In this document: piece after piece, positions 2,948 through 3,579 of the stretch
How positions within the stretch are numbered: the stretch's first letter is position 1
Layout of the letters: each line of letters begins with the position of its first letter
DNA from: a virus
Taxonomy: Duplodnaviria > Heunggongvirae > Uroviricota > Caudoviricetes
IMG/VR virus record: IMGVR_UViG_2537561932_000025
Span: 1 to 11,341 of that record
Direction: 5' to 3' (one strand)
DNA: 11,341 bases
Position numbers and translations under genes: made by a program
Notes under the pieces: generated by a model
The model's database searches: none
Seen by the model: only the letters and a program-made list of their open reading frames with translations
Told to the model about the DNA's origin: nothing

Positions 2948-3119
2948 AGCATTCAAAGCAGAAGGCTTTGGGGTGTGGTGAAGGGTTCATGGATGGGAAT
3001 ATGTCGCACGTAAAGCGGCGAGGCTTGCGGGACTATTGCCGAATTGAAGTCGGACGAAGCGGGTCGAAATGGGTCTCCCACCTACCACACCACCAAAGCT
3101 AACTGACAGGAGAATGACC

Positions 3120-3251
3120 ATGAATAACGAAGCGCTTAAAGAAATGATTGCGAAACTCCTTGAGGACGCACGCCGAATTCAAGAAGTGGAGCCAAACGCA
3201 GGGACACAATCACGTATTGATGAAGCGATGAAGTTGCTCAAAGGAGAATAA
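3120..3251 (+). CDS. Hypothetical 43-aa hydrophilic protein inserted between the N Shine-Dalgarno and the N start codon
   Basis: MNNEALKEMIAKLLEDARRIQEVEPNAGTQSRIDEAMKLLKGE. The upstream context ctgacaggagaat is the N ribosome-binding site in lambda. The ORF ends ...aaaggagaataaaATG, so the ggagaat motif is duplicated and the stop lies 1 nt before the N start. The ORF-track entry 3069..3251 is the same frame extended upstream. Confidence 0.55.
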   Translation: MNNEALKEMIAKLLEDARRIQEVEPNAGTQSRIDEAMKLLKGE

Positions 3252-3252
3252 A

Positions 3253-3579
3253 ATGGATGCACAAGCACGCCGCCGCGAACGTCGCGCAGAGAAACAGGCT
3301 CAATGGAAAGCAGCAAATCCCCTGTTGGTTGGGGTAAGCGCAAAACCAGTTAACCGCCCTATTCTCTCGCTGAATCGCAAACCGAAATCACGAGTAGAAA
3401 GCGCACTGAATCCGATAGACCTTACGGTGCTGGCTGAATACCACGAACAGATTGAAAGCAACCTGCAACGTATTGAGCGCAAGAATCAGCGCACATGGTA
3501 CAGCAAGCCACGCAGTGAAATAGGTGTGACTTGTGTTGGTCGCCAGAAAATGAAATTAGGCAGCAAACCACTTATTTGA
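3253..3579 (+). CDS. N: Antitermination protein N
   Basis: MDAQARRRERRAEKQAQWKAANPLLVGVSAKPVNRPILSLNRKPKSRVESALNPIDLTVLAEYH... carries the arginine-rich motif and is near-identical to lambda N over the first ~85 residues, with a variant C-terminal tail. It is downstream of pL and nutL. Confidence 0.95.
   Translation: MDAQARRRERRAEKQAQWKAANPLLVGVSAKPVNRPILSLNRKPKSRVESALNPIDLTVLAEYHEQIESNLQRIERKNQRTWYSKPRSEIGVTCVGRQKMKLGSKPLI

What the first reader, a model, noticed from the sequence alone, without database searches (positions are those of the whole stretch)
3100..3256. Small ORF inserted exactly between the N ribosome-binding site and the N start codon, with duplicated Shine-Dalgarno
In lambda the N ribosome-binding site (caggagaat) is followed within a few bases by the N ATG. 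Here the same motif at 3105-3113 instead precedes a 43-aa ORF (3120-3251), whose end recreates ...aaaggagaataaaATG so that N starts 1 nt after its stop. This looks like a clean moron insertion that duplicates the ribosome-binding site and places N under translational coupling. N translation is normally controlled through the nutL-proximal leader (RNase III processing, N autoregulation), so an upstream coupled ORF could retune the lysis-lysogeny switch or encode a small effector made at the very start of the pL transcript. The peptide is strongly helical and charged, with no recognisable family.
Basis: partly seen in the sequence, partly recalled or inferred. Interest (0 to 1): 0.6.

Follow-up and report, generated by a model that had tools for sequence, protein, structure and literature searches.

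The report
Conserved small gene wedged before N
A real, conserved 43-amino-acid phage gene of unknown function sits exactly between the lambda N gene and its usual ribosome-binding site in a rare group of lambda-like prophages, so it, not N, is the first protein made from the early-left transcript.

Summary
A 43-codon ORF (3120-3251) follows the lambda N ribosome-binding site (AGGAGAAT, 3108-3115). A second AGGAGAAT (3242-3249) lies in its last codons, and N starts at 3253, 1 nt after the stop. Phage CL707 has the same leader with the normal junction, which defines a 134-nt extra segment.

The ORF is a genuine gene. dN/dS is 0.07-0.12. It matches PHROG 32391 (function unknown). AlphaFold2 gives a confident two-helix hairpin. 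The LLEDARR..EPNAGT..RI domain occurs in about 100-150 protein clusters from Enterobacterales temperate phages, usually promoter-proximal in early-left operons.

The ORF-N pair recurs in six leader or immunity backgrounds, and ORF divergence tracks N divergence. It is an old, mobile cassette, not a one-off. It is rare: 5 of 1146 E. coli genomes with this N region, and 0 of 291 phage records.

It is not a classical moron: it has no promoter or terminator of its own and no compositional anomaly. Whether the event was an insertion or a deletion is unresolved. Structural masking of N's ribosome-binding site is significant only in this sequence, so translational coupling is plausible but unproven. 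The protein's function is unknown.

Verdict: a modestly interesting new variant of a known system.

The parts
2849..2877 (+). pL promoter (-35 TTGACA, -10 GATACT). The transcript start is about 2884, by homology with the annotated CL707 and lambda pL.
   Evidence: Consensus scan. Alignment to CL707 and lambda with annotated oL1-3, pL and the 5' nucleotide.
2917..2947 (+). nutL: boxA-like GGCTCTTAA (2917-2925; lambda has CGCTCTTAA) and boxB GCCCTGAAGAAGGGC (2933-2947).
   Evidence: Exact boxB match and boxA-like match. These are annotated as nutL in CL707 and lambda.
2964..3100 (+). Long leader hairpin. The 5' arm is 2964-2980 and the 3' arm 3083-3100, with a variable interior. It is homologous to the base of the structured lambda N leader (the RNase III-processed region) and ends 7 nt before the first Shine-Dalgarno sequence.
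   Evidence: RNA folds of the window, CL707 and lambda leaders. The stem forms in six backgrounds with interiors of 24-182 nt, and 7 of 17 pairs show double-sided compensatory changes.
3108..3115 (+). First Shine-Dalgarno copy, AGGAGAAT. This is the ancestral N ribosome-binding site, now serving the small ORF.
   Evidence: Identical to the lambda and CL707 N ribosome-binding-site context CTGACAGGAGAAT. Predicted to be accessible, unpaired probability 0.5-0.75.
3120..3251 (+). 43-aa gene (RefSeq WP_001701111.1; PHROG 32391). It encodes a two-helix hairpin with the conserved motif LK..IA.LLEDARR.Q..EPNAGT..RI.
   Evidence: annotation; PHROG, E = 3e-34; dN/dS 0.07-0.12; family; structure.
3156..3164 (+). 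CUCCUUGAG inside the ORF. It is predicted to pair with CUCAAAGGAG (3237-3246) and mask N's Shine-Dalgarno sequence. Status is inconclusive.
   Evidence: Minimum-free-energy fold. N Shine-Dalgarno unpaired probability is 0.17, against 0.58 +/- 0.16 for synonymous recodings. This does not hold robustly in E94, L010 or L011.
3242..3249 (+). Second Shine-Dalgarno copy, AGGAGAAT, embedded in the ORF's last codons (AAA GGA GAA TAA). This is N's ribosome-binding site.
   Evidence: Conserved as AAGGAG or AAGGGG in all N-linked versions, and lost (AAGCAG) in the EC12-type copies that no longer precede N.
3253..3579 (+). Antitermination protein N (108 aa, lambda/CL707 type, with the N36 arginine-rich motif).
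   Evidence: Pfam N36, E = 3e-25. 97% DNA identity to CL707 and lambda N.

Best explanation
The ORF at 3120-3251 is a functional phage gene. It encodes a 43-residue two-helix hairpin protein of a conserved but uncharacterised family (PHROG 32391).

Members of this family, whether stand-alone or fused to variable extensions, typically occupy the promoter-proximal slot of early-left operons in temperate phages of Enterobacterales. In a minority lineage of lambda-type (N36) phages the gene lies between the N leader and N, and travels with N as a cassette.

How it most likely works:
1. Shown by sequence and comparison: the ORF has taken over the ancestral N ribosome-binding site. That site sits just 3' of the conserved leader hairpin downstream of nutL. 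In lambda, this is where N translation is repressed by N/Nus factors bound at nutL and modulated by RNase III.
2. Shown by sequence: N is now initiated from a second AAGGAG built into the ORF's last codons, 1-2 nt after its stop.
3. Inferred: the hairpin protein is therefore the first product of pL transcription and inherits the leader's translational control. N is made partly by ribosomes terminating at the ORF stop and re-initiating (coupling), and partly by direct initiation at its own Shine-Dalgarno sequence.
4. Inferred, weakly: the protein acts as a small protein-binding factor on a host or phage target very early after infection or induction. No target can be named.

The cassette spreads among prophages by recombination in its conserved flanks: about 25 nt of leader on one side and the 5' end of N on the other.
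For: Evidence that it is a real gene:
- dN/dS 0.07-0.12 across four versions, with changes mostly at third codon positions.
- PHROG 32391 full-length match, E = 3e-34.
- 102 clusters in the exhaustive search and 144 in the annotated collection, all from Enterobacterales.
- Homologues in phages of Pectobacterium, Serratia, Aeromonas and Cronobacter and in Shigella Stx phages.
- AlphaFold2 hairpin, pLDDT 92.

Evidence for the cassette with N:
- The same ORF-to-N junction, with a 1-2 nt gap and a Shine-Dalgarno sequence in the K-G-E codons, occurs in the window, E94, L010, L011/L012, L015-18 and L019. These have different operators, nutL types and leader interiors.
- ORF dS tracks N dS: 0.49 against 0.41, and 0.59 against 0.60.
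- In EC12-type loci, where N has been deleted (its 3' tail remains), the Shine-Dalgarno sequence inside the ORF is lost.

Evidence that it took over the N ribosome-binding site:
- CL707 has the identical leader with the normal junction.
- The leader stem is conserved, with compensatory changes at 7 of 17 pairs, and always ends just before the first Shine-Dalgarno sequence.
- The first Shine-Dalgarno sequence is predicted to be accessible.
- Background on N autorepression through nutL and the structured leader comes from PMC5725501, which cites Wilson et al. 1997 and 2002.

Evidence for the promoter-proximal niche.

Evidence bearing on coupling:
- The stop-start gap is 1-2 nt in all versions.
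- Other family members overlap their downstream gene by 4 or 8 nt.
- N's Shine-Dalgarno sequence is masked in this window: 0.17 unpaired against 0.58 for synonymous recodings, with 0-0.5% of recodings as low.
Against: - There is no expression data of any kind.
- Predicted masking of N's Shine-Dalgarno sequence is not reproduced robustly in E94, L010 or L011 (the fraction of recodings as low is 0.04-0.70). N may therefore initiate independently at its strong AAGGAG.
- The protein's function is unsupported by any homology. Pfam, NCBIfam and PADLOC are negative, and the fold searches are uninformative.
- The downstream partners of family members are heterogeneous: N, Kil, phrog_6396 and others. 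No specific functional link to N is shown.
- This prophage is defective: IS elements interrupt the replication region. Selection on this particular copy may therefore be relaxed.
- RNase III cleavage of the variant leader is assumed from homology of the stem base only.
Confidence: 0.7

Rival explanations
1. Passenger gene with no regulatory consequence for N. The hairpin gene is an ordinary mosaic early gene that happens to sit upstream of N. N is translated independently from its own strong Shine-Dalgarno sequence (AAGGAG, 6-nt spacing). It has thereby escaped the leader-proximal translational control, being about 133 nt further from nutL and the stem.
For: - N has a complete Shine-Dalgarno sequence at optimal spacing.
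- Masking of that sequence is not conserved in E94, L010 or L011.
- Family members occur next to many unrelated genes.
Against: - The stop-start distance is held at 1-2 nt in all versions, and the ORF and N co-diverge as a unit.
- In this window, N's Shine-Dalgarno sequence is less accessible than in 99.5-100% of synonymous recodings.
Confidence: 0.3
2. Regulatory upstream ORF (leader peptide). Only the act of translating 3120-3251 matters, for example by opening structure, preventing Rho loading on the long leader, or delivering ribosomes to N. The peptide itself has no function.
For: - Its position directly after a structured leader and directly before N.
- The tight junction with N.
- Other family members are also promoter-proximal and overlap the next gene.
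Against: - The amino-acid sequence is strongly conserved, with dN/dS about 0.1.
- The same roughly 40-aa domain is nearly invariant in more than 100 clusters, including proteins where it is C-terminal, N-less phages, Pectobacterium phages (the Amona group, lifestyle not determined) and a P4-like element.
- The AlphaFold2 fold is confident.
Confidence: 0.1
3. Reverse polarity. The ORF-N arrangement is ancestral for N36-type phages. The familiar lambda junction arose by loss of the ORF, for example by deletion between the two AGGAGAAT repeats. The window would then show the primitive state rather than an insertion.
For: - The ORF-N linkage is as old as the split between E. coli-type and L010/L011-type N genes: ORF dS is about equal to N dS.
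- All three distinct deep N lineages sampled with the ORF keep the same junction.
- The L010/L011-type N genes have no close ORF-less relative among sequenced phages.
- An 8-bp direct repeat flanks the segment.
Against: - The simple repeat-deletion product AGGAGAATAAAATGG is absent from IMG/VR.
- ORF-less alleles outnumber ORF-bearing ones by roughly 20-200 to 1.
- Family members elsewhere are independent genes that could have served as donors.
Confidence: 0.4
4. Chance ORF or recombination scar with no coding function.
For: - Short ORFs are abundant in the window.
- The prophage is degraded.
- There is no Pfam or NCBIfam hit.
Against: - dN/dS 0.07-0.12.
- PHROG match, E = 3e-34.
- More than 100 homologous clusters across genera.
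- The other five frames are closed in every version.
Confidence: 0.02

Closest known systems
Bacteriophage lambda pL-nutL-N leader (N translational autoregulation modulated by RNase III; Wilson et al. 1997 and 2002, as summarised in PMC5725501)
   Same: - The pL/oL operators, the boxA/boxB nutL, the base of the long leader stem, the ribosome-binding-site sequence CTGACAGGAGAAT and the N36-type N protein are all present.
- They are about 97% identical to lambda/CL707.
   Different: - The stem-proximal ribosome-binding site serves a 43-aa gene instead of N.
- N sits about 133 nt further downstream, behind a second Shine-Dalgarno sequence.
- The stem interior is replaced relative to lambda (it is the CL707 type).
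- boxA carries a C-to-G change.
- Whether N autoregulation and the RNase III effects persist is untested.
Morons of lambdoid phages (Juhala/Hendrix sense: an extra gene with its own promoter and terminator between genes that are adjacent in relatives). This definition is from my own knowledge.
   Same: - Presence/absence polymorphism at a precise gene boundary, relative to closely related phages.
- A small accessory gene of unknown function.
   Different: - No promoter or terminator of its own and no compositional anomaly.
- It is expressed from pL as part of the operon.
- It sits inside a regulatory leader, not between two genes.
Translationally coupled operon gene pairs (termination-reinitiation with the downstream Shine-Dalgarno sequence inside the upstream gene, for example trpE-trpD and trpB-trpA). 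From my own knowledge.
   Same: - The stop and start are 1-2 nt apart, with the Shine-Dalgarno sequence inside the upstream ORF's last codons.
- In this window the Shine-Dalgarno sequence is predicted to be base-paired to upstream coding sequence.
   Different: - Dependence of N on ORF translation has not been demonstrated.
- The masking helix is not robustly conserved.
Small early-left (pL operon) proteins of lambda such as CIII (54 aa), Kil (47 aa) and Ral (66 aa). From my own knowledge.
   Same: Small, largely helical accessory proteins made early from pL. They act on host proteins.
   Different: - No sequence or profile similarity.
- The position is upstream of N rather than downstream, so expression does not require N-mediated antitermination.
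PHROG families 32391, 30817, 12693 and 2982 (all 'unknown function'), and WP_001339605.1, the 133-aa protein in the Qin-like dicB operon of EPEC E2348/69
   Same: - They share the LLEDA[KR]R..EPNAGT..RI hairpin domain.
- They share a promoter-proximal early-left location.
   Different: - In those proteins the domain is fused to variable N- or C-terminal extensions, and it is not next to N.
- The named small proteins in the corresponding K-12 slots (YdaG, YdaF, YdfB, YdfC) are not members.

Membership tests
Lambda-type pL-nutL-N leader system | pL promoter with oL operators and a lambda-like transcript start | tested here: met
   TTGACA-17-GATACT at 2849-2877. About 97% identity to lambda/CL707, where oL1-3 and pL are annotated.
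Lambda-type pL-nutL-N leader system | nutL with boxA and a boxB hairpin | tested here: met
   boxB GCCCTGAAGAAGGGC at 2933-2947 is exact. boxA-like GGCTCTTAA at 2917-2925 has one change from lambda.
Lambda-type pL-nutL-N leader system | Long structured region between nutL and the ribosome-binding site (the RNase III substrate in lambda) | tested here: met
   The stem 2964-2980/3083-3100 is predicted in all leaders, with compensatory changes at 7 of 17 pairs. Actual RNase III cleavage cannot be tested here.
Lambda-type pL-nutL-N leader system | The stem-proximal ribosome-binding site directly initiates N | tested here: not met
   That site (3108-3115) initiates the 43-aa ORF at 3120. N starts at 3253, behind a second Shine-Dalgarno sequence.
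Lambda-type pL-nutL-N leader system | N protein with the N36 arginine-rich motif | tested here: met
   Pfam PF11438, E = 3.1e-25, 87.8 bits against a cut-off of 25.
Moron (strict sense) | An extra gene present between elements that are adjacent in close relatives | tested here: met
   CL707 has the same leader and N without the 134-nt segment.
Moron (strict sense) | Own promoter and terminator | tested here: not met
   pL is the only + strand promoter-like site in 2700-3900. There is no + strand terminator-like site.
Moron (strict sense) | Nucleotide composition distinct from the flanks | tested here: not met
   GC is 0.46-0.52 across the ORF, against 0.48-0.55 in the leader and N.
Translationally coupled gene pair | Stop and start codons overlapping or a few nt apart, with the downstream Shine-Dalgarno sequence inside the upstream ORF | tested here: met
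   The gap is 1 nt here and 1-2 nt in all N-linked versions. AAGGAG/AAGGGG lies in the K-G-E codons.
Translationally coupled gene pair | Downstream initiation site masked unless the upstream ORF is translated | tested here: inconclusive
   In the window, the Shine-Dalgarno sequence is 0.17 unpaired against 0.58 for recodings, with 0-0.5% of recodings as low. For E94, L010 and L011 the fractions are 0.04-0.70, depending on the context used.
Translationally coupled gene pair | N synthesis depends on translation of the ORF | not testable with these tools
   Requires start-codon or nonsense mutants with N reporter fusions.
PHROG 32391 / LLEDARR-EPNAGT hairpin-domain family | Full-length profile match | tested here: met
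   phrog_32391: E = 3.1e-34, residues 1-43 aligned to profile positions 1-43 of 43.
PHROG 32391 / LLEDARR-EPNAGT hairpin-domain family | Conserved motif LK..IA.LLEDA[RK]R.Q..EPNAGT..RI and a two-helix hairpin | tested here: met
   Alignments. AlphaFold2 helices at residues 3-23 and 29-41, pLDDT 92.
PHROG 32391 / LLEDARR-EPNAGT hairpin-domain family | Promoter-proximal location in an early-left operon of a temperate phage | tested here: met
   Here it is the first ORF after pL/nutL. The same niche is seen in phiES15, the 75/02 Stx phage, BZS1, L024-L030, L034-36 and E2348/69. Exceptions exist: L031-33, the Amona phages and the P4-like L013.
Regulatory leader peptide / uORF (product irrelevant) | Peptide sequence not conserved outside the regulated context | tested here: not met
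   The domain is nearly invariant in more than 100 clusters, including contexts without N.

The most novel reading that the evidence does not exclude
The LLEDARR-EPNAGT hairpin protein may be a previously unrecognised immediate-early effector of Enterobacterales temperate phages. It would be made before, and independently of, N-mediated antitermination. In the N-linked cassette it might act on the same regulatory node as N, for example on Nus factors, RNase III or the Lon turnover of N. Alternatively it might neutralise a host defence or host factor in the first minutes after infection or induction. Its placement in the N leader would then be a selected way of giving it the earliest possible, self-limiting expression while keeping N coupled to it.
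Probability: 0.15. Interest if true: 0.7.

Novelty: new variant of a known kind. Interest (0 to 1): 0.4.

Why it matters
The lambda N leader is a textbook case of translational control by a transcription elongation complex. Here nature has placed a conserved protein-coding gene exactly at the controlled ribosome-binding site and rebuilt a second site for N.

This gives a ready-made natural variant, with an isogenic 'empty-site' comparator in CL707, for three questions:
- Does N autoregulation and RNase III modulation act on whichever ORF is proximal to the stem?
- Does translational coupling transmit that control to N?
- What does a protein made ahead of N do?

Separately, the work defines an uncharacterised, strongly conserved 40-aa domain family that is widespread in prophages of E. 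coli, Salmonella, Klebsiella, Enterobacter, Serratia and relatives. It usually sits at the very start of early-left operons, a position typical of host-takeover or anti-defence factors. If the protein turns out to be inert or redundant, the finding is only another example of lambdoid mosaicism.

Tried and rejected
- **Rfam and tRNA scans of the window:** nothing.
- **DNA search of the ORF against 50,697 phage records:** no match. Only protein-level homologues exist.
- **Pfam, NCBIfam and PADLOC on the peptide and longer family members:** no significant hits.
- **Foldseek against PDB and BFVD:** only the Serratia phage homologue. Generic helical hairpins such as the hantavirus N coiled coil and LUZ24 gp4 score E > 3.
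- **K-12 Rac or Qin small proteins in the equivalent slot:** YdaG, YdaF, YdfB and YdfC are unrelated. The ORF upstream of the phiES15 family member is YdfB-like.
- **Conserved masking of N's Shine-Dalgarno sequence as proof of coupling:** significant in the window only, not robust in E94, L010 or L011 or with longer flanks. Downgraded to inconclusive.
- **Classical moron:** rejected.
- **Repeat-mediated deletion scar allele (AGGAGAATAAAATGG):** not found in IMG/VR. The variants of the 5 nt that follow GGAGAA in ORF-less alleles (TCCAG, TCACA, TCAAG, TAAAG and others) do not settle the polarity.
- **A functional link to N-like arginine-rich proteins:** a 45-aa arginine-rich ORF follows the homologue in L077 and L108. 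It has no family support and is absent from phage BZS1. Not pursued.
- **A boxA/boxB-like element upstream of distant homologues (CGTTCCGYT plus a hairpin):** real in a subset of loci but absent from the window and from K-12 Rac/Qin. Recorded as a side observation.
- **MAFFT-based pair counting for the leader stem:** abandoned because the alignment did not respect the bulge. Replaced by a per-sequence pair table.
- **Literature:** no paper mentions the motif or an ORF between nutL and N. The primary papers on N autoregulation are not held.
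Full report
**1. What is in the sequence**

The window is a degraded lambda-immunity prophage next to the sucrose permease gene cscB. It is identical, over the 241 nt compared, to E. coli strains 503440 and 503829.

On the + strand the features run in this order:
- cI (1293-2006).
- A 126-aa ORF where lambda has rexAB.
- oL/pL (-35 at 2849, -10 at 2872).
- nutL boxA-like sequence (2917-2925) and boxB (2933-2947).
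- A long leader hairpin (2964-3100).
- The motif CTGACAGGAGAAT, with AGGAGAAT at 3108-3115.
- A 43-codon ORF (ATG 3120, TAA 3249-3251).
- N (ATG 3253 to 3579).

The only error is that 'caggagaat' lies at 3107-3115, not 3105-3113. The ORF's last codons, AAA GGA GAA TAA, contain a second AGGAGAAT (3242-3249). Its GGAG lies 6 nt before the N start.

**2. The empty-site comparator**

Phage CL707 (EF120459) has the same leader. This includes the stem interior, which differs from lambda's. It joins AGGAGAAT-CCAG-ATGGATGCA exactly as lambda does.

Relative to CL707, the window carries 134 extra nt (3116-3249) bounded by an 8-bp direct repeat. The spacer is AAA instead of CCAG. The rest of the leader differs at about 6 of 230 positions, and the first 63 N codons have dS 0.04.

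**3. It is a real gene**

Four sequence versions of the ORF (window/E94, L010, L011, EC12) differ at 12-28 nucleotides. Most of these are third codon positions, giving dN/dS 0.07-0.12 at dS 0.43-1.35. All other frames are closed.

The peptide matches PHROG 32391 end to end (E = 3e-34). It also matches the N-termini of three families of longer proteins, phrog_30817, 12693 and 2982. All four are of unknown function.

An exhaustive HMMER search found 102 clusters at 50% identity. A profile search of the annotated collection found 144 clusters. Every one is 'hypothetical', has no Pfam domain, and comes from Enterobacterales.

The roughly 40-aa module LK..IA.LLEDA[RK]R.Q..EPNAGT..RI..A is nearly invariant, while the sequence fused to it at either end is hypervariable.

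AlphaFold2 predicts a two-helix hairpin, helices 3-23 and 29-41, with pLDDT 92. The following gave nothing informative:
- Pfam, NCBIfam and PADLOC.
- Foldseek against PDB and BFVD.

**4. The ORF-N arrangement is recurrent and old**

The same architecture occurs in six backgrounds. The order is pL, boxA, boxB, long stem, TAACTGACAGGAGAA, ORF, a 1-2 nt gap, then N. The backgrounds differ in operators and repressors, in boxB (GCCCT/GAAGA, GCGCT/GAAAA, GCGCT/GGAAA, or the P22-type GCGCTGACAAAGCGC) and in stem interior (24-182 nt). They are:
- the window;
- E94/E92/TW14425;
- L010;
- L011/L012/L020;
- L015-18;
- L019.

ORF divergence tracks divergence of the neighbouring N 5' half. Window against L010 gives dS 0.49 for the ORF and 0.41 for N. 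Window against L011 gives 0.59 and 0.60. The two genes have therefore been linked since those lineages split.

Among the E. coli copies the ORF is nearly identical (1 nt difference between the window and E94) although the leaders differ. This points to recent spread of the cassette by recombination in its conserved flanks.

In E94 the right-hand junction lies inside N. Eighteen lambda-N codons are fused in frame to a complete P22-type gp24, downstream of a P22-type nutL. I identified gp24 and its boxB from my own knowledge.

In EC12, L021 and L022 the ORF follows a 933W-type N and is followed by the last 23 nt or so of a lambda-type N. This is an N-deleted derivative. The Shine-Dalgarno sequence inside the ORF has decayed to AAGCAG in all of them, and the upstream one has also decayed in EC12 and L022.

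The arrangement is rare:
- 0 of 291 phage records that match this region.
- 5 of 1146 E. coli genomes that match it.

**5. The leader context**

The base of the lambda N-leader stem is retained (GGCUUUGGGGUGUGGUG pairing with UACCACACC-A-CCAAAGCU). It forms in every background. Seven of 17 pairs show double-sided compensatory changes, mostly in L015 and L010. The stem is therefore under selection, and the first Shine-Dalgarno sequence always lies just 3' of it.

[quoted passage not shown] That RNase III processing of this structure modulates the repression comes from the title of Wilson 2002 in that paper's reference list and from my own knowledge. By position, the small ORF now occupies the controlled site. 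This is an inference, not a demonstration.

**6. Coupling to N**

The geometry fits termination-reinitiation: a 1-2 nt gap, with the Shine-Dalgarno sequence inside the upstream ORF.

In the window, CUCCUUGAG (3156-3164) is predicted to pair with CUCAAAGGAG (3237-3246). N's Shine-Dalgarno sequence is 0.17-0.19 unpaired. This compares with about 0.55 for N's site in lambda and CL707, and 0.58 +/- 0.16 for 400 synonymous recodings of the ORF. At most 0.5% of recodings are as low.

The same test on E94, L010 and L011 gives fractions of 0.04-0.70, depending on the sequence and the flank length. I therefore treat structural masking as inconclusive. N could also initiate directly at its strong Shine-Dalgarno sequence.

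**7. Not a classical moron, and polarity is unresolved**

There is no promoter or terminator on the + strand other than pL. There is no compositional anomaly.

The simple repeat-deletion product AGGAGAATAAAATGG is absent from IMG/VR. ORF-less junctions carry TCCAG in 120 of the 132 sampled, or minor variants including TAAAG. The deep ORF-bearing N lineages have no close ORF-less relatives among sequenced phages. Gain and loss both remain possible.

**8. The family's niche**

Distant members are typically the first or second gene after the repressor in early-left operons:
- Cronobacter phiES15 (95 aa).
- Shigella Stx phage 75/02 (118 aa).
- Serratia BZS1 (42 aa).
- L024 to L030 and L034-36.
- A 133-aa version between a DUF1391 gene and dicB in the Qin-like prophage of EPEC E2348/69. 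DNA of that locus matches 1567 of 5426 E. coli genomes at least in part.

Exceptions are Pectobacterium phages such as Amona (a stand-alone gene followed by an inverted repeat), a P4-like element, and a rightward-operon position in L031-33.

Downstream partners vary:
- N.
- Kil, with an 8-nt overlap.
- phrog_6396, with a 4-nt overlap.
- Others.

No specific functional tie to N is shown. The K-12 proteins YdaG, YdaF, YdfB and YdfC are not members. I found no literature on the motif or the arrangement.

**9. Verdict**

It is wrong or unproven on 'moron', 'single clean insertion' and 'no family'.

The best reading is a conserved, mobile two-gene cassette. An uncharacterised hairpin protein has become the first translated product of the pL transcript, at the leader-controlled ribosome-binding site. 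N is initiated immediately behind it.

What the protein does is unknown. I favour a small protein-binding early factor, with low confidence. This is a new variant of a well-known system, of moderate interest. Its value lies mainly in offering a clean natural experiment on N-leader control, and in drawing attention to an unstudied family of early phage proteins.

Noticed in passing
L004 (E. coli E94) 4780-5534; also E92 and TW14425: The annotated 124-aa 'N' is a chimera. Eighteen codons of lambda N (MDAQTRRRERRAEKQAQW) are fused in frame to a complete P22-type gp24 (MTVIVYGKSTFAGNAKTRRHERRR...), so it carries two arginine-rich motifs. It lies downstream of a P22-type nutL (TGCTCTTTA ... GCGCTGACAAAGCGC). 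The small-ORF cassette was spliced in front of a different N.
   Followed up: partly
L005 (E. coli EC12) 4595-5200; L021, L022, L044, L045: A 45-aa copy of the small gene, 87% identical at the DNA level, lies downstream of a 933W-type N. It is followed by the last 23 nt or so of a lambda-type N (GGCAGCAAACCACTTATTTGAGG). This is an N-deleted derivative of the cassette. The Shine-Dalgarno sequence inside the ORF has decayed to AAGCAG.
   Followed up: partly
L014 2458-2490; L025-27 3467-3500; L028-30 3457-3500; L034/L036 about 3460-3500; L024 about 2455-2490; L008 2821: There is a conserved element 34-44 nt upstream of distant family members. It consists of A(A/C)CGTTCCG(Y)T followed by a short hairpin with a GCGATAA-type loop. 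The stem covaries (GCC/GGC, CCC/GGG, GCCG/CGGC). It may be a nut-like site or a translational operator of early-left leaders in Rac/Qin-like prophages. It is absent from the window and from K-12 Rac and Qin.
   Followed up: partly
window 2981-3082: The interior of the N-leader hairpin is completely different from lambda's but identical in type to CL707's. Across backgrounds the interior varies from 24 to 182 nt while the stem base is kept by compensatory changes. The stem base therefore looks like the selected part.
   Followed up: yes
window 2917-2925: The nutL boxA reads GGCTCTTAA, where lambda has CGCTCTTAA. The change is shared with CL707. Other ORF-bearing leaders have TGCTCTTAA.
   Followed up: no
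window 2073-2453: A 126-aa ORF (phrog_16322, unknown function, E = 8e-89) occupies the position of rexA/rexB downstream of cI. CL707, E94 and L010 carry other genes there, for example a Clp-fold serine protease in E94 and a BstA_C protein in L010. This is a variable slot of the kind that often holds exclusion or defence genes.
   Followed up: no
window 3590-3832 and 7266-7520: There are two DUF7446 paralogues in the same early-left operon. The first starts 10 nt after N.
   Followed up: no
window 1-560; L003 740-6500: The prophage is defective. An IS2 (IS3-family) transposase fragment (25-405) abuts a truncated O-like replication gene (330-560, - strand). In strain 503440, IS100 also lies further right. 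No tRNA or integrase lies between the TorI-like excisionase (9365-9565) and cscB (10094-11341, - strand).
   Followed up: partly
L077 and L108, about 40 nt downstream of the family gene: A 45-46-aa arginine-rich ORF (…TKRERRRARREIRTQRRRA…) follows the Serratia-type homologue. It resembles an N-like arginine-rich motif but has no Pfam or PHROG support, and it is absent from phage BZS1.
   Followed up: partly
L008 (Cronobacter phage phiES15) about 2870-2988: An unannotated ORF directly upstream of the family member encodes a YdfB-like peptide (MDNSTIMEKAYEDYFESLAEGEEALSFNEF...). This links the slot to the ydfA-ydfB-ydfC region of the dicB operon in Qin.
   Followed up: no
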